DNA from: Candidatus Hydrogenedens sp.
Lineage (GTDB): Bacteria; Hydrogenedentota; Hydrogenedentia; Hydrogenedentales; Hydrogenedentaceae
Length of the DNA: 64,000 nucleotides
Assembly (NCBI GenBank): GCA_049968235.1
Contig: JBMFRC010000008.1
Coordinates: forward strand, 64,001-128,000
Direction: 5' to 3'
The notes beneath the pieces are model-generated. The model had not been told where the DNA came from, did no database searches, and saw nothing but the letters and a program-made list of their open reading frames with translations. The position numbers and the translations under genes are program-made. Shown one piece after another: positions 9,461 through 52,408 of this stretch (its first letter is position 1; the number at the start of each line of letters is the position of its first letter).

Positions 9461-9709
9461 AATAGATGTAAAGTGGTAAAGTAAACAGTTTAATATTGAA
9501 AACAAAAGGGTGTCCGAAGGCATCGAAAGGAGGTGACCCGGTAAATGTCAGTTCGGACCATATGTAGTAATAAAAGTTGAATATAAATGCATAGGTATGT
9601 TGTAGGGACGCAACATAAAACCGAAGCATATTCGTTGTTTTGATTAAGGGACAATCAAAACAACACAAGGCAAGGACGCAACAAACATTAACTCATGGAG
9701 GAATTTGTT

Positions 9710-10525: not shown

Positions 10526-10615
10526 TAAAACTTTAACAGTAAAAGGTGTGTTCAAAATGAAACAATTAAGGGCAGGGAAAGCCCAAAGAAATAAGTAACT
10601 CAAGGAGGAATAACT

Positions 10616-11431: not shown

Positions 11432-11524
11432 TTGATGGGAAACATAAGGTTTGATTAAAATTGAATTACTCTTGGACAAAAAACTCATGGATGGGATAAC
11501 AATAACTCATGGAGGAATTTAGTT

Positions 11525-12340: not shown

Positions 12341-12350
12341 AGTTACTCTC

Positions 12351-12376
12351 GAGGGCAGGGTATATCCCCTGCCCTC
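12351..12376 (+). terminator. GC-rich hairpin (perfect 10-bp stem, 6-nt loop) downstream of flagellin copy 3; no U-tract
   Basis: GAGGGCAGGG-TATATC-CCCTGCCCTC, 11 nt after the stop codon. Confidence 0.35.
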
Positions 12377-12501
12377 TGTCTGGAACATATATTATCAGTA
12401 TTAACCTTTTCAGGGATGGCGTGAAAGACCTGAAAGCATGTCTGATAATTAAAAGAAAGGGAATTCTGGATAAGTGTTAAACACTCAAGGAGGTAAGAAC
12501 T

Positions 12502-20014: not shown

Positions 20015-21578
20015 CAGTTTTCGGATGGCTTAAAACCCGCTCCAGATAAGGAATCAGAGTATCCGCCATAATTTTTGCTTTCAGTTTTACCCCTTCCTGA
20101 CGCATGTGACAAATATCACCGAAATATTTTGTGCCCGCAGGCATATTCTCCGCAACCGGAATATAAAGGAGCCCATTATTCTCACAATAATCTCGCAATT
20201 GTTGATTAAATCTCTTCATAACATCGGAATATTGCTGAAAAGAGGAATTCGCCCAGCCCCATTCCTTATCATAATAAAAATCATAATAATCACGTTCCTC
20301 CTTGTTTACTTTTTCACGGTAAGGGACACCAATACTGGAAATACACATATCTATACCCCTTGACAAAAAAGAATGAAGTATATAATCAATATATCTAAAA
20401 ATGTATTGATTGATATATTCATCTATCTCTTCTTGCGGATATTGTAAAACTGACCTTATTTGTCTTCGCATAAATAGAGAGAAAAGTAATGCAATACGTG
20501 TTATTACCCGTTTACTATCAAAAGCATGGGAAAATACTTCGTAAACTACATCGTTAATTCCTTCATATAAAATCACCATGTCAGGTTGAAAATATAAATA
20601 ATCCGGTAATTTCGCACAATGCTTCTTTAAAACCATACCAGAAATACCACAATTAAAGACTTCAATACGATTTTCTCCGAAATGTTTTTTCAATTCTTGC
20701 TCTAAGAATTTTGGATAGGTCTCTTGATTAGAAATACCCTCTTCCGTAGTAGACGCACCAATACACAGGATGCGGAAAACTCCTTCGGGTTTCGGAACCT
20801 TAAAATCTTTATCTCTATAACCAAAATTATTGATTCGAAATGCCATCTCTGTAGAGTTCCGATGAGGCATATAGGAGAAATAATTTATGTCCCATAAGTC
20901 ATTCACAGATAACTTTCCTACCCATGGATTGATAGAATCATTTTTCCCTCTATACGGTAGAGCAAACACATAGAAAGAGTAATTTTCAAGATTTTCGCGT
21001 AAAGGGTAGAAAAAAAATTTATATGGTTTTTCCTGCATCGTCTCATGCCATAAAAAAGCCCTATATGATTGAAACATATCCTTCGGAATTGTCTTTATAA
21101 TTTCTTGATATATCAACAGATTGTCATTAATCCCAAAAGCCTTATCTGTGGGAGAACACGTTATATCAAAACTTTTTTTATTAATGTTGAGTTTGAACTG
21201 CTTTATGTCATAAATAGTTCGGAAAGCCTCCTGAAAAGTTTCATCCTCATCAAAATAGAAGTTAAAACGATAACTCCACATTTCTAATGGGTCGGGCTCT
21301 GGCAGACACCATTCATCGCCAACATATAATTGTTGCAGAGAAAACAAATTTTTCCCCTCCCCATAATGAACTCCTTCTTCTTTACCCTCGTCCCATTCCT
21401 TTATTAACAATTCACCACGACGGATACGAACAAATTTGTTTGTCTTTTCGATATATTTCCACCTTAATCGTTCAAATAATTCTAGAGATAAACAGATGAC
21501 AATAAACCAGAATAAAATGAAAAAACAATAACCCAAGATATAAACAAATCTCTTCGTTTTTTTGTGCTTCAACTCCAT
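19998..21578 (-). CDS. Membrane-anchored SGNH/GDSL-family hydrolase or O-acyltransferase (paralog A)
   Basis: N-terminal TM anchor. The C-terminal SGNH blocks are FRILCIGASTTEEG (block I, Ser codon at 20751-20753), FNCGISG (II), YEGINDVVY (III) and GDICHMRQEG (V, DxxH). Confidence 0.65.
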   Translation of the reverse strand: MELKHKKTKRFVYILGYCFFILFWFIVICLSLELFERLRWKYIEKTNKFVRIRRGELLIKEWDEGKEEGVHYGEGKNLFSLQQLYVGDEWCLPEPDPLEMWSYRFNFYFDEDETFQEAFRTIYDIKQFKLNINKKSFDITCSPTDKAFGINDNLLIYQEIIKTIPKDMFQSYRAFLWHETMQEKPYKFFFYPLRENLENYSFYVFALPYRGKNDSINPWVGKLSVNDLWDINYFSYMPHRNSTEMAFRINNFGYRDKDFKVPKPEGVFRILCIGASTTEEGISNQETYPKFLEQELKKHFGENRIEVFNCGISGMVLKKHCAKLPDYLYFQPDMVILYEGINDVVYEVFSHAFDSKRVITRIALLFSLFMRRQIRSVLQYPQEEIDEYINQYIFRYIDYILHSFLSRGIDMCISSIGVPYREKVNKEERDYYDFYYDKEWGWANSSFQQYSDVMKRFNQQLRDYCENNGLLYIPVAENMPAGTKYFGDICHMRQEGVKLKAKIMADTLIPYLERVLSHPKTVTASE

Positions 21579-23056
21579 TAACTTTTTCCTGATTGTGCTT
21601 TAATATATTTCACCAAATATGGTGTCGCTAATTCTGATTTTTTTCGAATTCCTTGTAATTTTTGATGACATAAATCATTAAAATAGGATGGGGATTCGTT
21701 CTGAAACATTTCATACATCGGGATATATAGAACATTCTCATTATTAAACTTTTTGCTTAACAGTCTATTATATACATCCAGAACATGGCTATACATACGA
21801 TAGTTTACGAAATTACCTCCCCACCATCTTTTTGTAACAAACTGGAAATAATCTTTCTCCTGCCATGTCATCGAGGAATAATTGGGGGCTGGCATACTCA
21901 TTACTGCAAACAATATACCTTTCTGCTGAAGATAATTGTTTATTTTTTCTATCTGGCTTAATATATCTTTATTAATATCACTTTGTATTTGTATGTCGTT
22001 GGGAAGAAAGAATAGGGGAAAAATATTCCGGCATAAATTTGAATGGATAAGTATTTTTTTTATTCCGTTCAGATGATTTAACCAGTAAGGCAGTAAAATG
22101 TGGGTTATATCATTTGCCCCTTCACAATAGAGAACAAGATTTGGTTCCATCAACAGATAATCTGGTAATCTCAGCCATAATTTATGAGCAGAAATGCCCG
22201 GTATTCCAGCATTAATCACTTCAATTTTATATTGTTGCTGGAATTGTTCCAATAAAAGTTTTTCCATGATATTTGGATAGGTTTCTTGCTCTGTAGGACC
22301 CTCTTCTGTGGTCGAACCACCGATACATACAATTCGGAACACACCTAATGGTTTAGGAACTACCACATCCTCATCACGAAATCCAAAATTGTTCGTATGA
22401 AATTCATAAGAGTTCAATTGTGCATGTTTCTTATACTCAAAATAAGGTATTTCCCAGATTCCGTTTCTATCCTTTATATTTCGGGGATAATTATTATTAC
22501 CTGCTTTATACCAGCATACCATGACCCCACGATTTTTCGTGTCCATTTTATAATAAACAAAAAGGTCGGAAATACTTTCCTCACCTTTTGCAAAAGAATG
22601 ATAATATTTTGAATAAACTTCCTGGCTTTGAATTGGTATTTCCTTCTCTAATATATTTATCAGTTCTTCATCAAAGTAATTTTTCGTAGTGGGTTCAGGC
22701 AGGTATGTAATTATCTCTTTTTTATCCATATCTTTTACAAGGGTGGTTATTTGATAAAAAGAAGAAAACAATTGTCTGTCGGTTTCATCCAATTGTAAGA
22801 AAAACTTTGCCCGATTGGCATACCATTGAGACATATCAGGAGAGTGAAACTTTTCTACAGATTGCAGTGGTTTTTGCGACACAACTTCACTGTGGCTCCA
22901 TGGAGGTTTATCATTCAAAGAGGAGATGAGAGGATTCTTTTGTATAACAAGATATTCATATATACGCACTACACATTCAGCAACTGCAATTGCAACAATA
23001 ATCCAGAGAAAAAAAATCAATATTTTACCGATACTTTTTACGAAATGATATTTCAT
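21578..23056 (-). CDS. Membrane-anchored SGNH/GDSL-family hydrolase or O-acyltransferase (paralog B)
   Basis: N-terminal TM anchor, FRIVCIGGSTTEEG, INAGIPG, CEGANDITH and NDLCHQKLQG. It shares a 1-nt overlap with paralog A and a 4-nt ATGA overlap with the upstream GT-C gene. Confidence 0.65.
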   Translation of the reverse strand: MKYHFVKSIGKILIFFLWIIVAIAVAECVVRIYEYLVIQKNPLISSLNDKPPWSHSEVVSQKPLQSVEKFHSPDMSQWYANRAKFFLQLDETDRQLFSSFYQITTLVKDMDKKEIITYLPEPTTKNYFDEELINILEKEIPIQSQEVYSKYYHSFAKGEESISDLFVYYKMDTKNRGVMVCWYKAGNNNYPRNIKDRNGIWEIPYFEYKKHAQLNSYEFHTNNFGFRDEDVVVPKPLGVFRIVCIGGSTTEEGPTEQETYPNIMEKLLLEQFQQQYKIEVINAGIPGISAHKLWLRLPDYLLMEPNLVLYCEGANDITHILLPYWLNHLNGIKKILIHSNLCRNIFPLFFLPNDIQIQSDINKDILSQIEKINNYLQQKGILFAVMSMPAPNYSSMTWQEKDYFQFVTKRWWGGNFVNYRMYSHVLDVYNRLLSKKFNNENVLYIPMYEMFQNESPSYFNDLCHQKLQGIRKKSELATPYLVKYIKAQSGKS

Positions 23057-25269
23057 TGAGGTGCCGGGAAGGTTTGCTGAGGGTTATTTTTCAGTCGCTC
23101 CAATTCCGTGGCAGGACGAAGGTCTGTGGGGTCAAGTTCTATCGCTTTCTGAAAATATTCAATTGCTTTCTCATGATTTCCTAACCCTAAATATGCCCTA
23201 CCCATACAGGTATGAGCAAATGAATCATTGGGTAATAATTGAAATGCCTTTTCCAACGCTGAAATAGCTGATTCATATTGCCCTCGATTAATGTGAATAT
23301 CAGCAATATTAATCCAGTTCCATGGGTATTGTTCCGGTTTCAATTCAACAGCCTTTGTAAACGCTTCGATGGCAAGGTCCCATTCCTGTAATTCTTTATA
23401 GGACATTCCAAGATAGGAGTATGCCTGTGCATAACCGGGGTCAAGTTGAATCACATGTTTGCAGGTATCAACTGCAGACCAATAATCGTTAACTCGCCAG
23501 AATTCCAGAGCCATAGCACATAAATCTTCTAATAAGGCTACCGATTTCTTGTTGTACGTTTTCACAGAGTCCTGTAAAGAAAATATCTGGTGGTAAACAA
23601 CCACTCGCTGAATGCCAGCAAATTCCTCTGCTTTGTAAATAATCCCTTTTTCCTTTAAATATTTTTCAAAATGATAAAGCGGTGCAGACTCAAAATAATC
23701 CCCCTGAACAACAATCCATAATTTTGCATTGGGTCTTCGTACTGGCAACAGTTTTGTAATCAGAAATTCAGCAATTTCGGCAGTATTCTCAAACTGCGAA
23801 CCATAACAAACAACATTGGGCACAGGACCTAAATTGTATAGGAAAACACGCTTCCATAATTCATTGTTTACAAGGATAATGTCTTCCGCTTTTGCATTAT
23901 GCTTGATAAATACACCTGCATTCTTCCAATCGGTGTGTTGCGGTTTCCCGAGGATTAAACTACCCTGGTACAAATACAAAAGTAGAAATGCGGTAAAGAG
24001 CAGTCGTTTTACCCATTTCTTACTTTCCACGCTATTAATAGTATAGCCAATAATCAGATACAGGGCAATCGAACTATGGAGAGTATATCTTGGCATAATA
24101 CAGGGTCGCCATAAGTGCGAAATAAAGTATAAAAATAAAGGAGGAAATAGCCACCAGATACAATAGAGCAGGATAAAAGAATTATTTGTTTTTCCAATAT
24201 TATTCGACTTTAATTCCTTATTATCTTTTTCCCTGAAAAAATAAGTCCAGATAGCCCCGACAAGGCAAAAGACATATAAAACTGCCATTACCCCCCCTAT
24301 AAAATATTGCTGTGATACAATAATCCGTGCAGTTTCTTTGCTAAAAAAATGCATCCAGAAATCGGGTTCCGCACGAAGTTGGTAAGTCCAACCAATACAA
24401 TCATCGGCAACAAGGTCGCCTATAAATTCACGGAGTGTCGGTATCTTCATCCAGGAAGAGGTCATATCCGGCGACCAAAAATTAATAGTTAGAATATACA
24501 ACACAGAAGGTAGTGAAATAAGGAACAGAGGAATAGCCCATTTCATCAGAAAAAGGATTTCTTCCCTCAAATAATCTTTATAAAACCACTCATTCGGTCT
24601 CCCATTGCGGTATCTCCAGGCACGAATGAGCAATCGGTCTACCAGTAAATATACCCCCTGAACCATAACAACCAGAGTCGCAAAGGGATGTGTCCAGAGA
24701 AGGAGAAATGTGATGATAAGGTAATAGATAAATGTTCTTCGTCTCTGTTCGCGATACCAATATATAAAAAAAAGCATGGACAGAATAGATAGGAGGGTGA
24801 ACAAACTATACATTCGTATCTCCTGTGAAAACTGCCGATGTATAGGCGACAGAGCCACGAGAAGACAGGCAATAAGCCCCGTAGAAGCATTAAAACTTAT
24901 ATTTCCTAAAATGTATGTGCTATAAATAACCGTCAATCCAATAAAGACCGAAAGAAGACGGAGAGAATAATATGATTCATCAATATAGGTATGCCAAAAA
25001 TATTCAATAGAATAATATAAAGGCATGGTAGCAGGGTCCATAGAGCGATTCTTTATCAAGAAATGCAGGATATTCATTGAAGGTTCATAATGAACACCCT
25101 GAGCCCAACGCGTAAAATTCGGCGAAGATTCATACTCAGCCAGCGGTTTCAGGTGAACAACACTACTAAATTCGTCCCACCATATAGATTCGTAACTTAA
25201 ACCTACAGAACGATATAAATAACCTGCAAGTAAAATTAAAAATAAATATAGAAATACTTTTGAATTCAT
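23053..25269 (-). CDS. GT-C fold (PMT/ArnT-like) membrane glycosyltransferase with C-terminal TPR repeats
   Basis: About 12 predicted TM segments, with SIWWDEF (acidic loop motif) and DPATMPLYY. The C-terminal ~150 aa are TPR-like (AYSYLGMSYKELQEWDLAIEAFTKAVELKP...). Confidence 0.7.
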   Translation of the reverse strand: MNSKVFLYLFLILLAGYLYRSVGLSYESIWWDEFSSVVHLKPLAEYESSPNFTRWAQGVHYEPSMNILHFLIKNRSMDPATMPLYYSIEYFWHTYIDESYYSLRLLSVFIGLTVIYSTYILGNISFNASTGLIACLLVALSPIHRQFSQEIRMYSLFTLLSILSMLFFIYWYREQRRRTFIYYLIITFLLLWTHPFATLVVMVQGVYLLVDRLLIRAWRYRNGRPNEWFYKDYLREEILFLMKWAIPLFLISLPSVLYILTINFWSPDMTSSWMKIPTLREFIGDLVADDCIGWTYQLRAEPDFWMHFFSKETARIIVSQQYFIGGVMAVLYVFCLVGAIWTYFFREKDNKELKSNNIGKTNNSFILLYCIWWLFPPLFLYFISHLWRPCIMPRYTLHSSIALYLIIGYTINSVESKKWVKRLLFTAFLLLYLYQGSLILGKPQHTDWKNAGVFIKHNAKAEDIILVNNELWKRVFLYNLGPVPNVVCYGSQFENTAEIAEFLITKLLPVRRPNAKLWIVVQGDYFESAPLYHFEKYLKEKGIIYKAEEFAGIQRVVVYHQIFSLQDSVKTYNKKSVALLEDLCAMALEFWRVNDYWSAVDTCKHVIQLDPGYAQAYSYLGMSYKELQEWDLAIEAFTKAVELKPEQYPWNWINIADIHINRGQYESAISALEKAFQLLPNDSFAHTCMGRAYLGLGNHEKAIEYFQKAIELDPTDLRPATELERLKNNPQQTFPAPQ

Positions 25270-25405
25270 ACCTAAGTTTTCGTTATCGCTTTATAGCCAA
25301 ATCTTTTTATACCTCAAATTATTTATAATAACATATCATAATAAGGATTGAATATTTGATGAACGCATAATAGATGCTTTTTAATTAAACCTATGGAGTA
25401 CGCCG

Positions 25406-26623
25406 ATGCGATCGTTTTTAAAAAATATATTATTAGCATTAGGGTCAATACTTGTGGTTCTTATATTGACCATGGTATTGGACCGACTGTTAGGGAACAT
25501 CCTGCCCAAGCCATTTCCTGAAGGCACACATGATTTAATTTTTCCTCCCTTATCGCGACAGGAATTCGCCTCAGTTGATTTTAAATATGTGGTAGAAACT
25601 AATTCATTAGGGATTCGGGACCGAGAAATACAAAGACCTAAAAGCAGTAATAGTTACCGCATCATAGCAGTTGGTGATTCCTATACTTACGGTTGGGGCG
25701 TGAATATTGAGGAAACCTGGCTCCGTGGACTGGAACAAAAACTGTTATTGGAGAACAAACAGATTGAAACTGTGAATTTAGGCAAACCCGGGACAGGTCC
25801 TCCTTTCTATGCAGAAATTACCCGCACTATTGTCCCCTTACTTGAACCCGATTTGATACTGGTCGGAATTTTACAGGGAAACGATATTGCTTCTTCAGGA
25901 ACGGAAGGGTTAGAGCAAATGAGTTCGGGATTGGTCCGCTGGACAAAATTATTTTACCCAAACTTTGTCCGTACAGTAGAAATGATGCAATTGACGCGTT
26001 CTCTTGAAACGCGGACACAGGAGCGACCCCCAGAAAAAACAACCGCAGAAGACAACGCAAAATGGTCTGCCAATACCGCAAAGGATTTTTATGAAAAAAT
26101 GTCCGCAGAGGAAAAACAAAGATTTGATAATTTCGATGCCGAAGTAAAACAAGCATTTTTTGATGGGCTATTAAATCCTTATATGATTGACCTTGCATTG
26201 AAGAACAAACACATTTATACACTAACATTAAACCCTGATGACCCATGGATTCAGCAATGTATTGGGAATATGGCAAAAGCATTACAAATCATAAAATCGG
26301 TAGCAAGTCAAAACGATGCTCAAGTTGCTGTCGTTAGTATCCCGGATGGCCCGTATGTGAATGAGGTTGCATGGAAAAATATTCAGCGTGTTGGATTCGA
26401 TGTAGTTCCAGACATGCTAACTTCCGATGCACCCGATAAAGTTATTCAGATTGCTTGTGAAAAGGTAGGTATCCCCTGTTATACCGTCTCCTTTGCATTT
26501 CGCCAGAGAAAACAAGACCCCAACTTGTTCTTTACACTGGATGGGCATTTGACCGCTGAAGGACATAAATTATTAGCAGAGACGCTTGCTCCTCAACTAC
26601 AGAAGTGGCTAACCAAAAAATGA
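25406..26623 (+). CDS. Membrane-anchored SGNH/GDSL-family hydrolase or O-acyltransferase (paralog C)
   Basis: N-terminal TM anchor, YRIIAVGDSYTYGWG (block I, GDS at 25672-25680), VNLGKPGTG (II), GILQGNDIAS (III, GxND) and FTLDGHLTAEGH (V, DxxH). Confidence 0.7.
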   Translation: MRSFLKNILLALGSILVVLILTMVLDRLLGNILPKPFPEGTHDLIFPPLSRQEFASVDFKYVVETNSLGIRDREIQRPKSSNSYRIIAVGDSYTYGWGVNIEETWLRGLEQKLLLENKQIETVNLGKPGTGPPFYAEITRTIVPLLEPDLILVGILQGNDIASSGTEGLEQMSSGLVRWTKLFYPNFVRTVEMMQLTRSLETRTQERPPEKTTAEDNAKWSANTAKDFYEKMSAEEKQRFDNFDAEVKQAFFDGLLNPYMIDLALKNKHIYTLTLNPDDPWIQQCIGNMAKALQIIKSVASQNDAQVAVVSIPDGPYVNEVAWKNIQRVGFDVVPDMLTSDAPDKVIQIACEKVGIPCYTVSFAFRQRKQDPNLFFTLDGHLTAEGHKLLAETLAPQLQKWLTKK

Positions 26624-27774
26624 ATAAAACAACAATACAAAAAAATATAAGCAAGAAAAAAATTGTTCTATTTACCTTTTTACCCCTCGCTATCTTACTT
26701 TTTAGCCTGGAACTGATAGCACGAATCATAGAGATATGGCTTCCTCCTATGGTGACAGATATCGGTTTAGGTTTTACAGAAGATTCCCGATTATTTATCC
26801 CTGACCCTTATGACAGCCGATATTTGATAACACATCCCAATAAGACTGTTGCTTTTCAAAATCAACGATTTCTAAAAAACAAACCATCAGGAACTTTACG
26901 CATATTTTTTCTCGGAGGTTCCTCTGTAAATTATGTTAACTACGAATTGCCAAATTTATCCGAACGATTGGAAGAAACACTTAAACCAAGATACAAAGAA
27001 GTCGAGATTATTAATTGTGGGGGACTTTCGTACGGGACACATCGACTTGTATTGATTGCTCGTGAGATTGTGAACTATAACCCTGACCTTGTAATGATAT
27101 ATTCCGGACATAATGAATTTGAAGAAATTGAACAATTACATTTAGCACGAGTGCAAATAACGAAATTACAACGGGTTTTGTTCTCCTCCGCAATGATGCG
27201 ATTTATTCGCGACCGAATCGCAACCTACCAGATATCCCAATTGGAAAAAGAGCATAATCGCAGAATGTTGGCTCAATCATTACCCGATGCAGGTAAAGGA
27301 TGGAATCATATTTTCACACCCCAGGAAATTGCAGAACGAATGGAAAAATACAAAAATAATCTCAACGAAATTATACAGTTATGTAAAGAGAAAAATATAA
27401 AAGTCGTTATTGCAACCGTTCCTTCAAACTATATAAAGCCCAATTTAATAGGGAAAACTGCAGAAGAATATGAACAAGTGTTGCAGTTAATTAAAGAAGA
27501 GAAATATAAAAAAGCGTATGAATTAGGTAGGAAAATTATTCGTGAAACTTCGCCACGACATCAATCTTCCGACCTTGAAAATAACATTGTGCGAGAACTC
27601 GCAGAGAAACATCATATTCCTCTGGCTGATGTTTTATCTGCAGTAGAGCGGGCAGAACCCCACCACATTCCCGGTGAAACTTTGTTTAATGACCATTGTC
27701 ACTTAAATCCAGAAGGCAATAGTATTATGATACATACATTTGAGGAAAAAATCTTACAGGTATTGGCAGAATAA
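26620..27774 (+). CDS. Membrane-anchored SGNH-family hydrolase (paralog D)
   Basis: N-terminal TM anchor, RIFFLGGSSVNY (block I), INCGGLSYG (II) and FNDHCHLNPEGN (V). The ATG at 26620 gives an ATGA overlap with the upstream stop; the ORF-track alternative is a GTG at 26605. Confidence 0.6.
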   Translation: MNKTTIQKNISKKKIVLFTFLPLAILLFSLELIARIIEIWLPPMVTDIGLGFTEDSRLFIPDPYDSRYLITHPNKTVAFQNQRFLKNKPSGTLRIFFLGGSSVNYVNYELPNLSERLEETLKPRYKEVEIINCGGLSYGTHRLVLIAREIVNYNPDLVMIYSGHNEFEEIEQLHLARVQITKLQRVLFSSAMMRFIRDRIATYQISQLEKEHNRRMLAQSLPDAGKGWNHIFTPQEIAERMEKYKNNLNEIIQLCKEKNIKVVIATVPSNYIKPNLIGKTAEEYEQVLQLIKEEKYKKAYELGRKIIRETSPRHQSSDLENNIVRELAEKHHIPLADVLSAVERAEPHHIPGETLFNDHCHLNPEGNSIMIHTFEEKILQVLAE

Positions 27775-30417: not shown

Positions 30418-31302
30418 TTAATTTTGTGTGCATTCGGATTCTAATTGAGCAATTCGGTCTGGATAATCCGATAATATCCAATCCACTTCCGAAAAAATAT
30501 ACTTTTTTATATCCTCAGATTTGTTTACCGTGAATACAAGGATTTGAATCCCCTTTTCTTTTATTTTTTTCATTTCTTCAGGGGTTATCTTAAAATTTTC
30601 TGCCATTTTTTCATTGATGGCTAACATTTGAGCAGGAGGTGTGTAATTTGACCAATTCTTACTTCGTAATGCAGACAAAAAACTAAGGGCATCAGAAACT
30701 GTAAAACAAGTTTTAATTTGAGGGTATTCTTTTCTTATTTTTTCAATTACTTGTGGATGAACCGATGCGAGATAAACTCTGTCCTGCATATTTCGACTGA
30801 TAATAGGTTCAACAATAGGTGCGAGGTCTTCTGTAAACGGTTTTATTTCAAACAAAAACATGTGCTCTGGAAATGCTTCCAATACTTCGTTCAGAGTTGG
30901 AACCGTAATTCCCTTACCACGAAATGGAAAAGTTTGCCCTCCATCATTAGAAAATCGGTATCCTGCATCTAACTCTTTAATTTCCTTCAAGGTTTTTTCT
31001 TTAACGGGACCCTGCCCATTGGTTGTACGGTCCACAGTAGTATCATGCATAAGAATAGCAACATTATCCGCTGTAATCTGAACATCTCCCTCTAACAAAA
31101 AATTCCTCCAACAAGAAACCGCTTGCTGATAAGCATAAAGAGTATTTTCAGGTAATAAAGCCTTACCCCCACGATGTGCAGCAACTTTTGTTTTACAGAA
31201 TTTATCCTGTGTAAGTTTTTCATCATTATTCCCAAAAGATACTATCGTATAAATACAAAGGAACAAAAGTGTTAAAAATAAAATAAGATGAGTTCTATTC
31301 AT
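30418..31302 (-). CDS. Glycerophosphodiester phosphodiesterase family protein, secreted
   Basis: Signal peptide, VAAHRGG...PENTL and [27 protein letters not shown] are GDPD signatures. Confidence 0.8.
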
Positions 31303-31410
31303 AATACAAAACCTCGTTTTTGATTATATTGACAAAAAAACCGTAAACTAAGTTTCATGATAAAATATATGTATACTAAGTGCAAATAACAAATTGGAAA
31401 GGAGTTTACT

Positions 31411-32235
31411 ATGGAACAGTGGTTCAGTAATCAGGTGGTAATTGTTACAGGTGCAGGAAGAGGGATTGGTTTTTCAACTGCTAAATTGTTCGCTCAATAT
31501 GGAGCCAGCGTGGTGATTAATGATTATGACGCAAACTGTGCCGATAATGCGGCTTGCGAACTCAAAAATGCAGGATACAAAGTATTGTCCGTTCCCGGAG
31601 ATGTAACCGACCCGCAATATCCAGACATGCTAATGAAAAAGACCGTAGAAACTTTTGGTAAGGTGAATGTAATTGTAAACAATGCGGGGTATACATGGGA
31701 TGGCATGATACATAAAATGAGTGATAAACAATACATGGCAATGTTAGAAATTCATAATGTTGCTCCCTTCCGTATCATACGAGCAGCTTCTCCTTATATG
31801 CGTGAAGTAGCCAAGCAAGAAAAAGCAGAAGGTAAAACACCAGAACCGAGAAGTATTGTCAATGTTTCTTCTCTTTCTGGCTTACATGGAAATACCGGGC
31901 AAGCCAATTATAGCACTGCTAAAAGCGGTATTGTGGGTTTAACAAAGACAGTAGCAAAGGAATGGGGACCATTTGGTATTCGTTGCAATGCAGTGGCGTT
32001 TGGTTTTATCGAGACGCGTTTAACCCAGGACCAGGAAAGTGGTGAACAAATAGAAGTAGAAGGTGAAAAAGTGCAATTGGGTATTCCATCGCATATGAAA
32101 GGAATGATAACCATGCTTATACCGTTAGGAAGACCCGGAACGCCAGACGAAGCAGCAGGAGCCATCGTTTTTCTTGCATCACCTCTGGCTTCATATATAA
32201 CAGGTATTTGTCTTGAAGTTACAGGAGGATTATAA
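31411..32235 (+). CDS. SDR family NAD(P)-dependent oxidoreductase (3-oxoacyl-ACP reductase-like)
   Basis: TGAGRGIG Rossmann motif, NNAG, and the YSTAKSG active-site YxxxK. Confidence 0.85.
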   Translation: MEQWFSNQVVIVTGAGRGIGFSTAKLFAQYGASVVINDYDANCADNAACELKNAGYKVLSVPGDVTDPQYPDMLMKKTVETFGKVNVIVNNAGYTWDGMIHKMSDKQYMAMLEIHNVAPFRIIRAASPYMREVAKQEKAEGKTPEPRSIVNVSSLSGLHGNTGQANYSTAKSGIVGLTKTVAKEWGPFGIRCNAVAFGFIETRLTQDQESGEQIEVEGEKVQLGIPSHMKGMITMLIPLGRPGTPDEAAGAIVFLASPLASYITGICLEVTGGL

Positions 32236-32243
32236 GTTTAATA

Positions 32244-34328
32244 ATGATTCTTCGTGACAACATACAACTGGTTCGAACTATTCCTGAACGGTGTCGTATT
32301 TGTTACACATGCGTTCGAGAATGTCCTGCTAAGGCTATTCGTGTGGTCCATGGACAGGCAGAAGTTATCCGTGAACGATGCATCGGTTGTGGAAATTGTG
32401 TAAAGGTCTGTAGTCAGCGTGCAAAAGAAATATATAGCCCGATTGAGAATGTTTTGCAATTATTAAAAGATAACAAACCATGTGTTGCGTTATTAGCACC
32501 GAGCTTCCCAGCAGAATTTACAGAGTGTTCTCCACATAAACTATGTTCTATCTTAAAACGATTTGGCTTTACCTATGTAGTAGAAGTAGGCTCAGGAGCC
32601 GACCTCGTTTCACGAGCCTACCGTCAATTATTAGCAGAAAATCCATCGCGTTCCTATATTGCCACGACCTGTCCTGCGGTTGTCGCATACATCGAACGAT
32701 ATTTTCCTCAATTAATTCCATTTTTAGCTCCGATAGTATCACCAATGGTGGCTACTGCAAGAGCAGTCCGACGCATGTATGGAACGAATTTGTCCGTTGT
32801 GTTCATTGGTCCATGTATTGCCAAAAAAGGTGAAGCCCAATCCGAAGCATTAAGTGATGAAGTAACAGAAGTCCTTACTTTTTCGGAAATGAGACAAATT
32901 TTAGATATGCACCTTCCGGAATGGGAACAGATTAATGAAGAACAAAACTTCGACCCACCCATTTCCGGTCCGGGAAGCCTATTCCCTATAAGTCGCGGTC
33001 TAATACAATCCGCTTCAATTCCTGAAGATTTAACAACAGATAATGTTATTGTTGCGGAAGGTAGGTCAGATTTTGTAGAAGCAATAAGGGAATTTGACGA
33101 AGGACAATGCCGTCCCAATCTTTTGGAGATTTTAGCCTGTGAAGGTTGTATTATGGGACCCGGCTATTCCCAAAAAGCAACACTATACCGTAGACGAACT
33201 TATGTAAGCCAGTATGTTCGTGATAAACTTAAACATATTGATTGGCAGTTATGGCGGCAACAAATAGCCCTATTAGCACAAATCAACATGTCTCGTAAAT
33301 ATATCCCTTATGCACAACGAACTCCCGAACCTACCCCTTCACAAATCGAAGATATTATGCATAATCTGGGTAAATTTAAACCTGAAGATGAATTGAATTG
33401 CGGTGCATGCGGTTATGACACTTGCATGGAACATGCTATTGCTATATATCACGGACTGGCACAAACAGAAATGTGTCTGCCTTTTACTATTCAACGGTTA
33501 AGAGAAACTATCCAGAATCTTGCAGAATCCAATGAAAAACTGGAAAAAACGCAGGAAACTCTTATGCAAACAGAAAAACTTGCAAGTATTGGACAACTTG
33601 CCGCAGGAATTGCTCATGAACTAAACAATCCGTTAGGTGTTGTGCTTATGTATGCACATCTTCTCCTGGATGAATATGGAACAGAAGAATCTTTGAAAGA
33701 AGATTTAAAGATGATTGCTACCCAGGCAGACCGCTGTAAGCGAATTGTCTCCGGACTACTTCATTTTGCAAGACAGAATAAAATCTCGATAGAAACAACA
33801 AATATACCCAGGTTGATAGAACATGCATGCAAGCTGGTTATTATTCCATCTAATATTCAGTTAAAAATAGCAGACCATATGCGAAATCCAATAGCAGAAT
33901 TGGATAAAGAACAAATTACGCAGGTACTTACAAATCTAATAACCAATGCAATACAGGCGATGCCCAATGGTGGAACCTTAACCTTAATTACCGAAGATGC
34001 ACCTGACGAAATTTATATAACTGTTGAAGATACCGGTACGGGTATCCCTAAGGAAAACCTGCCCAAAATATTTGAGCCATTCTTTACCACAAAAGAAATG
34101 GGAAAAGGAACCGGAATGGGGCTTGCGATTACTTATGGAATTATAAAGATGCATCGTGGACAAATTACCGTAGAATCCAATGATAATCCTAAAGATGGAC
34201 CTACGGGCACCCATTTCTACATTTCATTACCCCGATATGTAAGTTCTATCAATGGGATTAAGGAAGTCGACATTAAAGAATGGTTTCACGAAGCAGAAAT
34301 GATAGAGGATATGTCAAAACCTTCATAA
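32244..34328 (+). CDS. Sensor histidine kinase with an N-terminal sensory [FeFe]-hydrogenase-like (HydS-type) domain
   Basis: Two ferredoxin motifs ([23 protein letters not shown]). H-domain motifs are L1 ATTCP (Cys at 32670-32672), L2 GPCIAKKGE (32814) and L3 [13 protein letters not shown] (33138). A Cx2Cx4Cx16C motif lies at 33399-33476. Then His[12 protein letters not shown] and HATPase DTGTGIP...[10 protein letters not shown]. Confidence 0.75.
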
Positions 34329-34351
34329 ATAATTAAGCGAGCAAGTAGTGT

Positions 34352-35518
34352 ATGAAGCAAGAAGTATTTCGTGTACTGGTTGTTGATGATGAACCCGGCA
34401 TTCGTATTGGTGTCTCCCGTGTGCTCCAGAACTATTCCATTGAAATGCCAGAAGTAGAAACAAAAACATTATTTGAAGTAGAAGTTGTAGAAACCGCAGA
34501 AGAAGCTATCGAAAAAATTAAAGCAAAGCCTCCCCATATTCTACTGTTAGATAATAAACTTCCCGGAATGAGTGGGCTTGAAGCACTGGAAAAAATTGTT
34601 GCTATGAAACTATTGGAAACTTATACTGTTGTAATAACCGCATATGCCTCAATAGGAACCGCCGTTAAAGCCACAAAACATGGTGCCTATGATTTCTTAC
34701 CCAAACCTTTTACTCCAACAGACCTTAAAAATACGATTCATAAAGTAGTAAAACAATTAATCGTGGAACGCAAAGCGAGAGAATTAGCCAATGAGAAAAA
34801 ACGGATTCGGTTTGAATTTATATCATTACTTGCCCATGAACTTAAAGCCCCTATAAACGCAGTAGATGGTTATTTAAGAATTATAAAAGATATGAACATT
34901 GCGGATAATCCCCAACTCTGTCAGGACCTTGTAGAACGCTGTCTTATTCGAAATGAATATATGCGGAAAATGATTAATGACCTATTAGACTTAACAAGAA
35001 TTGAATCCGGACAAAAGGTAAGGAATATTGAAGAGGTCAATTTAAAAGATATCGCCCAAATGTCTATCGAAACATCGCAGGTAGAAGCACAAAAACGAAA
35101 TATTACTATGACCCTTCATGCGGACGGACCAATCATGATAAAAGCAGACCAAAATGAAATGGAGATTATCCTCAATAATCTGGTGTCCAATGCAGTGAAG
35201 TATAACAAAGACAACGGTAAAGTTGATGTCTTTTTATCCCGGGAAGGGGATAAGATTATATTACAGGTGAAGGACACCGGTATCGGAATGACTCCCGATG
35301 AATGTTCGCGTCTATTTCAGGATTTCGTCCGTATACGGAATAAAAAAACCGAGTCTATTTTAGGGAGTGGACTGGGCTTGTCTACAGTAAAAAAATTAGC
35401 ACAAATCTATGGAGGTGATGTATCTGTCCGTAGTACTCCTGATGAGGGAAGCACCTTTACTGTTGAATTACACGATTATGAAGAACCTGCGGAAAAACCT
35501 TCCATAATGGCAACTTAA
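34352..35518 (+). CDS. Hybrid response-regulator receiver/histidine kinase (REC-HisKA-HATPase_c)
   Basis: REC: VLVVDDEPGIR, phospho-acceptor D in LLLDNKLPGMSG, and TAYAS...KPF. HisKA: LLAHELKAPINAV. HATPase: DTGIGMTPDE...GSGLGLSTV. Confidence 0.8.
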   Translation: MKQEVFRVLVVDDEPGIRIGVSRVLQNYSIEMPEVETKTLFEVEVVETAEEAIEKIKAKPPHILLLDNKLPGMSGLEALEKIVAMKLLETYTVVITAYASIGTAVKATKHGAYDFLPKPFTPTDLKNTIHKVVKQLIVERKARELANEKKRIRFEFISLLAHELKAPINAVDGYLRIIKDMNIADNPQLCQDLVERCLIRNEYMRKMINDLLDLTRIESGQKVRNIEEVNLKDIAQMSIETSQVEAQKRNITMTLHADGPIMIKADQNEMEIILNNLVSNAVKYNKDNGKVDVFLSREGDKIILQVKDTGIGMTPDECSRLFQDFVRIRNKKTESILGSGLGLSTVKKLAQIYGGDVSVRSTPDEGSTFTVELHDYEEPAEKPSIMAT

Positions 35519-36255
35519 TACTTCTCTTTATTCTTTTGTCTTTGAACCAGATTCCTTATATAAGTAATTTCCGCAGGAGTTAAATACCGCCATTTCCCTG
35601 TACGTAAGTTTCCCAGGTTTATACCAGCAAAAGAGATTCTTTTCAGGGAGGTTAGGGGGAAACCCACTGAATCACACATTCTTTTTACTTCTCGTTTTCT
35701 TCCCTCATGAATGGTTAATTGAATGGTGGACGACTTCAAGTTTTGCCGTAAAACTTTCACTTGAGCAGGACTGGTTTTCCCATCTTCAAGCATAACACCT
35801 TGTTCCAACTTTTTTACAGCAATAGTCGTTATAAAACCTTTTACAACCACAATATAGGTTTTAGGAATTTCATTACTGGGATGTAGCAACTTATTTGCCA
35901 GTTCCCCATCATTTGTAAGGAGTAAAGCACCCTCAACATCCAGATCTAACCTTCCGACCGGGAATACTCTCACCTTCAGGTTTTTAATAAGGTCAATAAC
36001 CGTAGGTCTGCCAAATTCATCATTGGTGGTAGTTACATATCCCTTCGGTTTATTGAGCAAGATATATACTTTTTCGGGGATTTTTAAAGAAACAGGTTTA
36101 TTATCTAAAAAGACCCTATCCGTTTCAGGATTAATCTTTTGTCCCATAGAAGCGGGTAAACCGTTTACGGAAATTTTCCCTTCCTGAATAAAACGCTCAA
36201 TTACCCGTCGTGAACCGATACCACATTCCGCAAGATATTTCTGTAATCTGACCAA
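35515..36255 (-). CDS. rluB: RsuA/RluB-family 23S rRNA pseudouridine synthase (S4 domain plus catalytic domain)
   Basis: An S4 domain (LQKYLAECGIGSRR...GKISVNG) followed by the catalytic block VFPVGRLDLDVEGALLLTNDGELANKL. Confidence 0.8.
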   Translation of the reverse strand: MVRLQKYLAECGIGSRRVIERFIQEGKISVNGLPASMGQKINPETDRVFLDNKPVSLKIPEKVYILLNKPKGYVTTTNDEFGRPTVIDLIKNLKVRVFPVGRLDLDVEGALLLTNDGELANKLLHPSNEIPKTYIVVVKGFITTIAVKKLEQGVMLEDGKTSPAQVKVLRQNLKSSTIQLTIHEGRKREVKRMCDSVGFPLTSLKRISFAGINLGNLRTGKWRYLTPAEITYIRNLVQRQKNKEKY

Positions 36256-51895: not shown

Positions 51896-52408
51896 ATGAG
51901 AGATACAAAGGTGCAAGAACGAAGAAAATTTATACGAAGACAGGCTGATAAAGACCTACTTCAGCGTTATCAGGCTCTACTTGCGAGAATGCAACAATTA
52001 GAAACAATGGCAAGTGCTGAAGAAAGCAGAGAACTTAGACATAAACGACGCAGAATAATACGCCACTTATGTCATGTGAGAATAGGTCTACCTATTAGTT
52101 TTCAATCCGGTAGAGATGATGTCTGGACAGTAGAACAATTACCCATTAAAGGTAGATTACTTGACCTGAGTGCTGAAGGATGTGCAATATTCACCCATCA
52201 GAGTTTTGATATAGGACAAAACATCAATTTCGATATTGAAGTAAGTGGAGGGAAACATATCAAAGCAATGGGGTCAGTTCGATGGACAAAACAATTACCG
52301 GAAAAAGGAGGCTTTGCCTCCGGTGTCCAATTCCAGAGGATGGGAGAAGATAGCCAGAAAGTCTTACATTACTTTTTAGATGAATTAGACCGAACAATAG
52401 GTTTATAG
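51896..52408 (+). CDS. PilZ domain protein (putative c-di-GMP receptor)
   Basis: An RxxxR motif (RRRIIRH), and ~40 aa downstream a D-x-S-x-x-G motif (DLSAEGC). Confidence 0.5.
   Translation: MRDTKVQERRKFIRRQADKDLLQRYQALLARMQQLETMASAEESRELRHKRRRIIRHLCHVRIGLPISFQSGRDDVWTVEQLPIKGRLLDLSAEGCAIFTHQSFDIGQNINFDIEVSGGKHIKAMGSVRWTKQLPEKGGFASGVQFQRMGEDSQKVLHYFLDELDRTIGL

What the first reader, a model, noticed from the sequence alone, without database searches (positions are those of the whole stretch)
32244..35518. Sensory [FeFe]-hydrogenase-like (HydS-type) domain fused directly to a histidine kinase, followed by a REC-HK hybrid: a putative H2/redox-sensing phosphorelay
**What the sequence shows (32244..34328).**
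- Two ferredoxin-type Cx2Cx2Cx3C motifs.
- An H-domain with L2 (PCxxKxxE as GPCIAKKGE) and L3 (ExxACxGCxxG as [13 protein letters not shown]) intact.
- L1 reads TTCP instead of TSCCP, so the proton-relay Cys is replaced while the cluster-ligand Cys is kept.
- A downstream Cx2Cx4Cx16C motif at nt 33399-33476.
- A HisKA/HATPase_c kinase core immediately after.

**Partner gene.** The next gene (34352..35518) is REC-HisKA-HATPase.

**Established knowledge.** Putative sensory group-C [FeFe] hydrogenases such as Thermotoga maritima HydS have this H-cluster domain plus a C-terminal four-Cys motif of exactly Cx2Cx4Cx16C spacing, and altered proton-transfer residues. They are normally fused to a PAS domain, not directly to a kinase.

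**Inference.** This is a one-polypeptide hydrogen (or redox) sensor kinase feeding a hybrid kinase. No maturase genes (HydE/F/G) are in the window.
Basis: partly seen in the sequence, partly recalled or inferred. Interest (0 to 1): 0.6.

Follow-up and report, generated by a model that had tools for sequence, protein, structure and literature searches.

The report
Hydrogenase-like sensor fused to histidine kinase
This gene encodes a hydrogenase-derived iron-sulfur sensor fused to a histidine kinase; it belongs to a very widespread, already catalogued but never biochemically tested family of putative hydrogen sensors, and this copy sits away from the hydrogenase genes it normally accompanies.

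Summary
ORF 32244..34328 (694 aa) reads 2x[4Fe-4S] ferredoxin, [FeFe]-hydrogenase H-domain, Cx2Cx4Cx16C cluster domain, HisKA, HATPase_c. ORF 34352..35518 reads REC-HisKA-HATPase_c.

One correction: L3 is not canonical. It reads C-E-G-C, one residue shorter than the CxxGC of catalytic hydrogenases.

The direct kinase fusion is not unusual:
- At least 523 GTDB species genomes in more than 12 phyla encode relatives.
- HydDB (2016) calls the class [FeFe] Group C1, "histidine kinase-linked (putative)".
- A 2024 Hydrogenedentota survey lists 53 such proteins.

In relatives of 57% identity or less:
- 56 of 62 loci place the gene directly after hydC-hydB-hydA.
- 65 of 66 have the same REC-kinase downstream.
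- hydE/G/F often follow.

This supports a hydrogen-linked sensory role.

This window belongs to a Hydrogenedentota subclade (59-93% identity) in which the pair has left the hydrogenase operon. It lies beside an SDR gene and a GDPD gene instead. The 64 kb holds no hydrogenase, maturase or Rex gene. All 16 cluster cysteines and the phospho-acceptor His are invariant, and the H-domain is under strong purifying selection.

Verdict: a real, correctly read, uncharacterised member of a known kind. Whether it binds the diiron subcluster is untested.

The parts
32244..34328 (+). HydS-HK: 694-aa sensory [FeFe]-hydrogenase-like histidine kinase (whole ORF)
   Evidence: ORF. Pfam architecture. 93-49% identical full-length homologs. 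AF2 mean pLDDT 89.7. Foldseek matches [FeFe]-hydrogenases at E 1e-18 to 1e-21 and the ZraS kinase core at TMt 0.77.
32274..32420 (+). N-terminal 2x[4Fe-4S] ferredoxin domain (C17,C20,C23,C27; C46,C49,C52,C56)
   Evidence: Pfam Fer4_10/Fer4. All eight Cys invariant in 143 sequences.
32475..33161 (+). H-domain (Fe_hyd_lg_C), residues 78-306
   Evidence: Pfam E 8e-45 over the full profile. HMMER alignment to solved hydrogenases.
32661..32675 (+). L1 variant ATTCP: T142 at the proton-relay Cys position, C143 is the [4Fe-4S]H ligand
   Evidence: Alignment. C143 and P144 invariant; position 142 is T in 74 and S in 49 of 143 sequences. Translation checked.
32808..32834 (+). L2 GPCIAKKGE: C191 ligand, K194 (= CpI K358), G189 in place of M353
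   Evidence: Alignment. G189, P190, C191, E197 invariant; K194 in 140/143.
33126..33164 (+). L3 variant [13 protein letters not shown]: C299 and C302 separated by two residues, not three (one-residue deletion); L297 in place of M497
   Evidence: HMMER gap against three solved hydrogenases. C299, G301, C302, G305 invariant. The deletion marks the clade with kinase, sigma54 or GGDEF outputs.
33393..33482 (+). C-terminal cluster domain, Cx2Cx4Cx16C (C386,C389,C394,C411), PF04060
   Evidence: Pfam E 4e-09. All four Cys invariant. The motif is described for group C/D enzymes in PMC8163306.
33477..33677 (+). Predicted single 67-residue helix (412-478) running from just after C411 through the phospho-acceptor His458
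   Evidence: AF2 secondary structure H412-478. No PAS or other domain found between residues 413 and 450.
33591..34235 (+). Kinase core: HisKA (H458 at nt 33615-33617) and HATPase_c (N568, G1 D596/G598/G600, G2 G624/G626)
   Evidence: Pfam. Best NCBIfam and PDB matches are AtoS/ZraS-type kinases. Catalytic residues invariant.
34352..35518 (+). REC-HK: receiver (D12,D13,D67,T96,K118) fused to HisKA (H162) and HATPase_c; starts 23 nt after the HydS-HK stop codon
   Evidence: Pfam. 52% identical to the gene in the same position in L005. Present just downstream in 65/66 related loci. Signature residues invariant in 76 orthologs.
31411..32235 (+). FabG-like SDR oxidoreductase; 8 nt separate its stop codon from the HydS-HK start, so it is probably co-transcribed. 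Linked only in the close Hydrogenedentota relatives.
   Evidence: Pfam and NCBIfam, below every equivalog cut-off. Same position in L001-L003 and L087. Absent in L006, L088 and in operon-type loci.
30418..31302 (-). Glycerophosphodiester phosphodiesterase (GDPD), divergently transcribed. Conserved neighbour in the 'orphan' clade; functional link unknown.
   Evidence: NCBIfam. GDPD upstream on the opposite strand in L001-L003, L087 and L088.

Best explanation
The gene encodes a soluble, cytoplasmic sensor histidine kinase whose input module is a complete group-C-type [FeFe]-hydrogenase: two N-terminal [4Fe-4S] clusters, an H-domain and a C-terminal [4Fe-4S] domain. It belongs to the class HydDB calls [FeFe] Group C1, 'histidine kinase-linked'.

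Proposed mechanism, step by step:
1. Shown by sequence: all 16 cluster-ligand Cys, the residues that hold the diiron site in catalytic enzymes (A85-P86-S87, P167, K194), the H-box His458 and the ATP-binding motifs are present and invariant across the family.
2. Inferred: the H-domain is matured by HydEFG to carry an H-cluster. That cluster has slow turnover because the proton relay is dismantled: C299 to T, S319 to A, and the E279/E282 segment deleted.
3. Inferred: H2 binding or oxidation changes the redox or conformational state of the sensor.
4. Inferred from the model: the change passes through the C-terminal cluster domain into one long helix. This helix starts right after the last cluster ligand (C411) and carries His458. 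It shifts the kinase/phosphatase balance of the dimer.
5. Inferred from synteny: the phosphoryl group goes to Asp67 of the adjacent REC-kinase. That protein's own kinase then acts on a target that is not encoded nearby.

In most lineages the module sits inside rex-hydCBA-hydS(HK)-REC-REC/HK-hydEG(F) and presumably tunes bifurcating-hydrogenase expression or activity to H2.

In this Hydrogenedentota lineage the sensor/REC-kinase pair has moved out of that operon and lost the single-domain REC. It is kept under strong purifying selection next to an SDR and a GDPD gene, so its regulatory target here is unknown.
For: - Architecture and E-values.
- Fold: AF2 pLDDT 89.7, with helix 412-478. Foldseek matches DdH, CbA5H, TmHydA and CpI at E 1e-18 to 1e-21, and ZraS at TMt 0.77.
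- Invariance of all cluster Cys, H458 and the G1/G2 boxes in 143 homologs. Diiron-pocket residues: A230, P231, S232, P324, K358, E361 conserved; M353 to G in 143/143, as in TmHydS (PMC10055695).
- Synteny in 80 species-level loci: HydA ends less than 3.5 kb upstream in 56/62; four of the remaining six have HydA elsewhere within the flanks fetched (up to 10 kb each side); REC-HK downstream in 65/66; single REC adjacent in 58/66; HydG in the locus in 26/47.
- L014 has rex-hydS(HK)-REC/HK-hydE-hydG-aspA-hydF with no HydA in between.
- The same input module is fused to sigma54 AAA+/HTH, GGDEF or PAS in sister clusters.
- REC-HK signature residues are invariant in 76 orthologs.
- Purifying selection in the orphan clade: H-domain dN 0.069 against saturated dS, versus L007.
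- Published classification and expectation: HydDB Table 1; Hydrogenedentota survey; properties of TmHydS and TamHydS.
Against: - No member of the kinase-fused clade has been purified, so nothing here shows a [2Fe] subcluster, H2 binding or H2-dependent phosphorylation.
- L3 is one residue shorter than in every characterised H-cluster protein.
- M497 is Leu. An M497L variant of a prototypical enzyme failed to integrate [2Fe] (PMC10055695), although TamHydS has Leu there naturally and does bind it.
- Nar1/NARF-type proteins keep similar motifs while binding only [4Fe-4S] (my own knowledge, not tested here).
- In TamHydS the C-terminal cluster is not reduced by H2 (PMC13104023). This argues against a redox change of that cluster as the signal in step 4.
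- The window holds no hydrogenase, maturase or Rex gene. Some Hydrogenedentota clades rarely encode hydrogenases (PMC11406978).
- Synteny with hydEFG is expected anyway, because HydA needs them.
- No response regulator with an output domain is conserved nearby.
Confidence: 0.68

Rival explanations
1. The H-domain here binds only the [4Fe-4S] cubane and no diiron subcluster. The protein would be a general redox, O2 or NO sensor kinase, working like Nar1/NARF-type or other Fe-S-based sensors. It would report the state of the ferredoxin/NAD(H) pool or oxidant exposure rather than H2.
For: - The L3 loop is shortened by one residue throughout the clade.
- M497 is Leu. An M497L variant of a prototypical enzyme lacked properly integrated [2Fe] (PMC10055695).
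- The authors of PMC11406978 could not recognise P1-P3 and questioned H2 sensing.
- This copy, and all seven contexts examined at 59% identity or more, lack hydrogenase and maturase genes within the flanks fetched (up to 10 kb each side).
- Hydrogenedentota are described as facultative anaerobes.
Against: - Residues that hydrogen-bond the CN ligands or line the diiron pocket are invariant or nearly so: P86, S87, P167, K194. A cubane-only site would not obviously require them.
- M353 to Gly and loss of C299 are the same changes seen in TmHydS, which does bind [2Fe].
- TamHydS has Leu at position 497 and binds [2Fe].
- Linkage to hydCBA and hydEGF is near-universal in the rest of the family, including loci where the sensor lies directly next to maturase genes with no HydA between.
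Confidence: 0.22
2. The protein is a working, electron-transferring hydrogenase subunit of the HydABC/Bfu complex (a 'T' subunit) that happens to carry an ATPase domain, rather than a signalling kinase.
For: - It lies immediately after hydA in most loci.
- PMC11406978 treats neighbouring group C3 proteins as a BfuT subunit.
- PMC8542988 raises a metabolic role for a Group C1 enzyme.
Against: - A complete HisKA/HATPase_c core with invariant His458 and N, G1 and G2 boxes.
- A conserved partner with an intact receiver domain.
- The proton-transfer pathway of catalytic enzymes is absent.
- The pair persists without any hydABC nearby in this lineage.
- Sister proteins carry sigma54 or GGDEF outputs.
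Confidence: 0.05
3. The orphan copy is a decaying remnant left after the hydrogenase operon was lost, and no longer functions.
For: No hydrogenase genes in 64 kb. The single-domain REC found in 58/66 relatives is missing.
Against: - The reading frame is intact and every ligand and catalytic residue is retained.
- dN is 0.05-0.09 against saturated dS in comparisons with L007 and L001.
- The same gene pair and GDPD neighbour are kept across relatives down to about 61% identity.
Confidence: 0.03

Closest known systems
[FeFe]-hydrogenase Group C1, 'histidine kinase-linked (putative)' (HydDB; Sondergaard, Pedersen & Greening 2016, PMC5037454). This includes the 53 HATPase_c-bearing Group C1 proteins reported in Hydrogenedentota (Zheng & Huang 2024, PMC11406978).
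   Same: - Hydrogenase-like H-domain linked to histidine-kinase signalling.
- Predicted H2 sensing, with no biochemical data.
- Found in Hydrogenedentota. Only 21 of 53 lie next to group A3 hydrogenase genes, so orphan copies like this one were already seen.
- The closest named homolog (84% identity) is from Candidatus Hydrogenedentes.
   Different: Nothing essential. This work adds details not stated in those papers:
- The one-residue-shorter L3 (CxGC) explains why the published signatures failed.
- The REC-kinase partner is nearly universal (65/66).
- Sister clusters carry sigma54 or GGDEF fusions.
- The kinase follows the C-terminal cluster domain directly, with no PAS domain.

The HydDB classifier itself could not be run here.
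Thermotoga maritima HydS (group C, M2f; Chongdar et al. 2018; PMC10055695)
   Same: - N-terminal 2x[4Fe-4S], H-domain and C-terminal Cx2Cx4Cx16C cluster.
- Proton-relay Cys lost.
- M353 replaced by Gly.
- TmHydS binds a genuine H-cluster and has low turnover.
   Different: - TmHydS ends in a PAS domain and has no kinase.
- PAS-only proteins of about 570 aa with the TmHydS-like layout have canonical CxxGC L3 spacing (56 of 62 canonical-L3 representatives); the TmHydS sequence itself was not examined here.
- Position 299 is Ala in TmHydS and Thr here. Position 497 is Ser in TmHydS and Leu here.
- Sequence identity of the sensor part to that clade is only about 33-38%.
Thermoanaerobacter mathranii HydS (group D, M2e; PMC8163306, PMC13104023)
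   Same: - Same three accessory clusters.
- No PAS domain.
- Leu at position 497.
[quoted passage not shown]
   Different: - The kinase-like protein is a separate gene, not fused.
- M353 is Ser in TamHydS and Gly here.
- TamHydS has its own alternative proton pathway.
- Its C-terminal cluster was shown not to respond to H2. If that also holds here, it limits the proposed signalling step.
Regulatory [NiFe]-hydrogenase systems HoxBC-HoxJ-HoxA / HupUV-HupT-HupR (HydDB [NiFe] Group 2b, 'histidine kinase-linked')
   Same: Works in the same way in outline: a low-activity hydrogenase reports H2 to a histidine kinase that controls hydrogenase expression (HydDB Table 1).
   Different: - Unrelated metal site and fold.
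- Sensor and kinase are separate proteins joined through a PAS domain.
- The output is a known NtrC-type regulator, whereas no output regulator is identified here.
AtoS/ZraS/NtrB-type kinases, and Leptospira LvrB-type REC-kinase hybrids
   Same: - The kinase core of HydS-HK matches AtoS/ZraS best (NCBIfam 2e-60; PDB 9jfj, 7.5e-35).
- HydS-HK itself also hits LvrB: NCBIfam hybrid_RR_LvrB and PDB 8vc9_A.
- The partner gene has the N-terminal REC plus HisKA/HATPase layout that I recall for LvrB; the partner itself was not compared with LvrB here.
   Different: Those kinases use periplasmic, PAS or other inputs. None carries a hydrogenase module.

Membership tests
[FeFe]-hydrogenase superfamily (H-domain proteins) | H-domain fold / PF02906 | tested here: met
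   Pfam E 8e-45 over profile 1-245. Foldseek matches solved [FeFe]-hydrogenases at E 1e-18 to 1e-21.
[FeFe]-hydrogenase superfamily (H-domain proteins) | Four Cys ligands of the H-cluster (CpI C300, C355, C499, C503) | tested here: met
   C143, C191, C299 and C302 align to them and are invariant in 143 homologs.
[FeFe]-hydrogenase superfamily (H-domain proteins) | Canonical L3/P3 spacing, C-x-x-G-C | tested here: not met
   C-E-G-C, with a one-residue gap against TmHydA, TkHydA and DdH. This holds clade-wide.
[FeFe]-hydrogenase superfamily (H-domain proteins) | Bound [2Fe] subcluster with CO/CN ligands | not testable with these tools
   Needs FTIR/EPR on matured protein. The pocket residues P231, S232, P324 and K358 are conserved, but that is only consistent with a bound subcluster, not proof.
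[FeFe]-hydrogenase superfamily (H-domain proteins) | HydE/HydF/HydG maturases in the same genome | tested here: inconclusive
   None in the 64-kb window, and the rest of the genome is unavailable. In relatives, hydE/G/F are adjacent in many loci.
Catalytic group A / group B [FeFe]-hydrogenases | Proton-transfer pathway (C299, S319, E279, E282) and NCBIfam group A/B models above cut-off | tested here: not met
   T142, A162 and a four-residue deletion at the E279/E282 segment. TIGR02512 scores 95.8 bits against a cut-off of 405.95. TIGR04105 scores 184.7 against 450.
Putative sensory group C/D [FeFe]-hydrogenases | N-terminal 2x[4Fe-4S], plus C-terminal Cx2Cx4Cx16C cluster domain, plus loss of the relay Cys and of M353 | tested here: met
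   The features are defined in PMC8163306 and PMC10055695.
Putative sensory group C/D [FeFe]-hydrogenases | C-terminal PAS domain (M2f, TmHydS type) | tested here: not met
   No PAS hit. A predicted continuous helix links the cluster domain to HisKA.
HydDB [FeFe] Group C1 (histidine kinase-linked) | Assignment by the HydDB k-NN classifier | not testable with these tools
   The classifier is not available here. Indirect support: Hydrogenedentota proteins with HATPase_c were assigned to C1 by HydDB in PMC11406978, and the nearest named homologs are from Hydrogenedentes.
HydDB [FeFe] Group C1 (histidine kinase-linked) | Genetic or physical linkage to a histidine kinase | tested here: met
   Fused HisKA/HATPase_c and an adjacent REC-kinase.
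Two-component sensor histidine kinase (HisKA class) | H-box His and N, G1, F, G2 boxes | tested here: met
   H458, N568, D596/G598/G600, F613 and G624/G626 are invariant. Match to the ZraS structure.
Multistep His-Asp-His-Asp phosphorelay | Hpt domain or protein, and a terminal response regulator with an output domain | tested here: not met
   No Hpt or output regulator in the window or among conserved neighbours in 80 loci. The conserved elements are only a single-domain REC (absent from this window) and the REC-kinase.

The most novel reading that the evidence does not exclude
The sensor module with the shortened L3 (CxGC) could be a distinct, very widespread and biochemically untouched variant of the H-cluster site.

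Alternatively it could be a hydrogenase-derived Fe-S sensor that no longer needs the diiron subcluster.

In this Hydrogenedentota lineage the module has been freed from the hydrogenase operon. It might use H2 or cellular redox state as a cue to control something other than hydrogenases, through a two-kinase cascade whose output is unknown. Candidates near some orphan copies are the conserved GDPD/SDR neighbours or motility genes.
Probability: 0.2. Interest if true: 0.6.

Novelty: new member of a known kind. Interest (0 to 1): 0.3.

Why it matters
No sensory [FeFe]-hydrogenase has yet been shown to signal. The two studied enzymes (TmHydS, TamHydS) have no enzymatic output domain, so 'sensing' cannot be assayed directly.

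A protein in which the hydrogenase module is wired straight into a histidine kinase gives a simple readout: H2-dependent autophosphorylation and transfer to a defined partner. It could settle whether group C enzymes are true H2 sensors and how the signal leaves the H-domain.

The family is large, with at least 523 species in many anaerobic phyla, so it probably controls bifurcating-hydrogenase expression across much of the anoxic biosphere.

This particular copy mainly serves as an example of the module surviving away from hydrogenase genes. It is not a new kind of system.

Tried and rejected
- **Maturase or hydrogenase genes in the window.** tblastn with HydA/B/C/E/F/G, Rex, AspA and single REC from locus L005 found only the two target genes. 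Pfam on about 45 further ORFs found none; the radical-SAM ORF at 57093-58553 is a B12-binding/DUF4080 type, not HydE/G.
- **Whether this organism has hydEFG elsewhere.** Not answerable. The supplementary sheets of PMC11406978 that list Group C1 contexts are cut off in the stored copy.
- **Promoter and terminator scan of 31100-35800.** No excess over shuffled sequence, so it says nothing about operon structure.
- **Search for another conserved neighbour, such as an output response regulator.** All-against-all clustering of ORFs from 80 loci found only Rex, HydC, HydB, HydA, REC, REC-HK, HydE, HydG and HydF as recurrent real genes. The remaining clusters are antisense shadow ORFs.
- **dN/dS.** Synonymous sites are saturated even against the 91%-identical relative, so only an upper-bound statement of strong constraint is possible.
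- **Pfam census of all 150 representatives in one call.** Replaced by jackhmmer with domain seeds taken from Pfam-annotated examples; PAS detection by this route is approximate.
- **Nar1/NARF identity.** Considered. Bacterial origin, the accessory clusters and hydABC/hydEFG synteny argue against it, but motif conservation alone cannot exclude a cubane-only site.

Full report
**1. What is in the sequence**

ORF 32244..34328 (+) encodes 694 aa, and ORF 34352..35518 (+) encodes 388 aa, starting 23 nt after the first ORF's stop codon.

Pfam on the first protein:
- a two-cluster ferredoxin domain, residues 11-59;
- Fe_hyd_lg_C, residues 78-306, E 8e-45, full profile;
- PF04060 'putative Fe-S cluster', residues 384-413;
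- HisKA, residues 450-511;
- HATPase_c, residues 554-664.

Pfam on the second protein: Response_reg 8-129, HisKA 155-220, HATPase_c 266-374.

The kinase core of the first protein is closest to AtoS/ZraS-type kinases (NCBIfam 2e-60, PDB 9jfj 7.5e-35). The group A and group B hydrogenase models match, but far below their cut-offs.

**2. The H-cluster motifs**

HMMER alignment to solved hydrogenases shows:
- L1: ATTCP lies on TSCCP. Thr142 takes the place of the proton-relay Cys. Cys143 is the Cys before Pro, which is the cubane ligand (confirmed in PMC12138974).
- L2: GPCIAKKGE lies on MPCTAKKFE, giving C191 = C355, K194 = K358 and G189 = M353.
- L3: [11 protein letters not shown] aligns only with a one-residue gap to EVMACPGGCxxG.

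The accepted P3 is ExMxCPGGCxxGxGQ (PMC11406978). Both Cys are present, but the loop between them is one residue shorter.

The segment that carries E279/E282 is deleted, and S319 is Ala. The proton pathway of catalytic enzymes is therefore absent, as in the studied sensory enzymes (PMC8163306).

**3. Conservation**

In an alignment of 143 homologs (34-93% identity), the following are invariant:
- all eight ferredoxin Cys;
- C143, C191, C299 and C302;
- the four C-terminal Cys (C386, C389, C394, C411);
- His458 and the N/G1/G2 boxes.

Other positions:

| CpI position | Residue in the family |
|---|---|
| P231, P324, E361 | invariant |
| A230, S232, K358 | kept in at least 140 of 143 |
| M353 | Gly in all 143 |
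| M497 | Leu in 137 |
| C299 | Thr in 74, Ser in 49 |

**4. Structure**

AlphaFold2 on this alignment gives mean pLDDT 89.7. It predicts one uninterrupted helix from residue 412, immediately after the last cluster ligand C411, to residue 478, running through His458. No PAS or other domain intervenes.

Foldseek matches the first ~430 residues to [FeFe]-hydrogenases (DdH, CbA5H, TmHydA, CpI; E 1e-18 to 1e-21). The C-terminal part matches the ZraS cytoplasmic domain (TMt 0.77).

**5. How common is it**

The word-indexed search returned 7,998 hits. The best 120 all share this architecture at 54-93% identity. Those that carry a source name are from Hydrogenedentes, Planctomycetota/Phycisphaerae, Verrucomicrobia, Lentisphaeria and KSB1.

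The best 80 are full-length at 49-91% identity. They come from Planctomycetota, Hydrogenedentota, Bacteroidota, Myxococcota, Acidobacteriota, Fibrobacterota, Fermentibacterota, Calditrichota, Verrucomicrobiota, Lentisphaerota, Desulfobacterota, Thermoleophilia and Clostridia.

**6. Relatives of the sensor module**

An exhaustive search with residues 1-420 found 4,937 cluster representatives. The 150 nearest were aligned, and their output domains were identified from Pfam-annotated seeds. They fall into two sets.

| L3 type | Representatives | Output domains |
|---|---|---|
| Short, Cx2C | 84 | 44 histidine kinase, 14 sigma54 activator AAA+/HTH, 4 GGDEF, 6 PAS only, 16 none or fragments |
| Canonical, Cx3C | 62 | 56 PAS-only proteins of ~570 aa (the TmHydS type), 2 sigma54, 1 kinase+PAS, 3 none |

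The four remaining representatives have fragmentary or degenerate L3 segments.

The hydrogenase module therefore behaves as a portable input domain, and the short L3 marks the clade fused directly to signalling outputs. I did not find this correlation stated in the papers I read. It probably explains why Zheng & Huang 'were hardly able to find' P1-P3 in their Group C1 proteins.

**7. Genomic context of relatives**

Proteins of locus L005 were used as tblastn queries against the 80 species loci.

| Feature | Loci with it / loci with enough DNA to judge |
|---|---|
| Group A HydA ending less than 3.5 kb upstream on the same strand, preceded by HydB and HydC and usually Rex | 56 / 62 |
| Orthologous REC-kinase directly downstream | 65 / 66 |
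| Single-domain REC adjacent | 58 / 66 |
| HydG homolog within the locus | 26 / 47 |

- Four of the six loci without an upstream HydA have HydA elsewhere in the locus.
- The typical order is rex-hydC-hydB-hydA-hydS(HK)-REC-REC/HK-hydE-hydG-(aspA)-hydF.
- L014 has the sensor pair next to hydE-hydG-aspA-hydF with no HydA in between.
- Clustering of all ORFs in these loci found no other conserved gene, and in particular no response regulator with an output domain.
- The REC-kinase keeps D12, D13, D67, T96, K118, H162 and its ATP-binding boxes in all 76 orthologs aligned.

**8. This window is the exception**

tblastn and Pfam find no hydrogenase, maturase, Rex or single REC in the 64 kb. The arrangement here is GDPD (minus strand), then SDR, HydS-HK and REC-HK on the plus strand. 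Eight nt separate the SDR stop codon from the HydS-HK start.

Every context examined at 59% identity or more shows the same hydrogenase-free arrangement:
- L007 (91%): hydrogenase-free; its other neighbours were not annotated;
- L001-L003 (84%) and L087 (73%): with GDPD and SDR;
- L088 (63%): with GDPD but without the SDR;
- L006 (60%): with neither.

Operon-linked Hydrogenedentota copies are about 53-55% identical (L017, L018, L029, L033). This matches the published count of 32 of 53 Hydrogenedentota Group C1 genes lying away from A3 hydrogenases.

Within the orphan clade the gene is under strong constraint. Against L007, H-domain dN is 0.069 while synonymous sites are saturated.

**9. What is already known**

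[quoted passage not shown] - Genome papers have annotated such genes in Petrimonas, Cloacimonadota and Hydrogenedentota.
- The biochemical literature still describes group C as PAS-fused. [quoted passage not shown]
- For TamHydS, the C-terminal cluster is not reduced under H2. This argues against a redox change at that cluster being the signal.

**10. Interpretation**

The best-supported reading is an H-cluster-based H2 sensor kinase of the Group C1 kind. It passes its signal through the C-terminal cluster domain and a long helix into the DHp (the His458-bearing HisKA helices), then to the receiver of the neighbouring REC-kinase.

- Shown: architecture, residue conservation, fold, synteny, breadth.
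- Inferred: presence of the diiron subcluster, H2 as the ligand, the direction of phosphotransfer, and the output.

The main rival is a cubane-only redox or oxidant sensor. The short L3, Leu at position 497 and the hydrogenase-free context of this lineage keep it alive.

**11. Verdict**

The finding is real and essentially correctly read, but the fusion is not unusual or new. It is an additional member of a catalogued, uncharacterised family, in a lineage-specific orphan arrangement.

Its value is as a candidate for the first direct assay of hydrogenase-based signalling, not as a new type of system.

Noticed in passing
window 9695-13317 (+): Four tandem ORFs of 271-276 aa (9695-10525, 10616-11431, 11525-12340, 12502-13317) in a stretch of locally higher G+C (0.43 against about 0.37). 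The first two were scanned and are flagellins (Flagellin_N + Flagellin_C). The other two are inferred from equal length and tandem position.
   Followed up: partly
window 61901-62701 (-) and 62596-63657 (-): Two overlapping ORFs match the C-terminal (profile 238-352) and N-terminal (profile 7-155) parts of the Nramp metal transporter family. This looks like one gene split by a frameshift, so either a pseudogene or an assembly error.
   Followed up: no
window 19998-27774: Four ORFs with GDSL-like lipase/acylhydrolase domains (two on each strand), interleaved with a 738-aa TPR protein and next to a 1330-aa TPR/PMT_2 protein. Possibly a surface-polysaccharide or lipid modification cluster.
   Followed up: no
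related loci L004, L005, L008-L086 (HydA gene just upstream of the sensor): The group A3 HydA encoded next to the sensor mostly has L1 = TSCSP (49 cases) rather than TSCCP (12). That puts Ser at the position before Pro, which is the cubane-ligand Cys in CpI and CpIII. PMC11406978 already notes the variable fifth position of P1, but the consequence for cluster ligation is not discussed there.
   Followed up: partly
L005 19777-21369 (+); homologs in L033 (~4275, minus strand) and L053 (~394): After hydF lies a 530-aa protein. It has an N-terminal HATPase_c_2 (RsbW-like anti-sigma-factor kinase) domain, then a ferredoxin domain, a weakly matching H-domain with degenerate motifs (GCPAV, TCPSQR, CDEGC), and the PF04060 cluster domain. 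This is a second, different hydrogenase-derived signalling protein in the same cluster.
   Followed up: no
L088 6940-13645 (-), and window 9695-13317: In the 63%-identical orphan relative, a flagellar gene cluster (flagellin, FlgN, FlgI, FlgH, FlgA, rod proteins) begins 2.4 kb downstream of the sensor/REC-kinase pair. In the window, flagellin genes lie about 19 kb upstream. This may be coincidence, and no link was tested.
   Followed up: no
window 51896-52408 (+): A stand-alone PilZ-domain protein (c-di-GMP receptor family). Some sister sensors are fused to GGDEF domains, but no connection is shown.
   Followed up: no
window 57093-58553 (+): A B12-binding radical-SAM protein with DUF4080. It is the only radical-SAM ORF found in the window and is not a HydE/HydG homolog.
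   Followed up: yes
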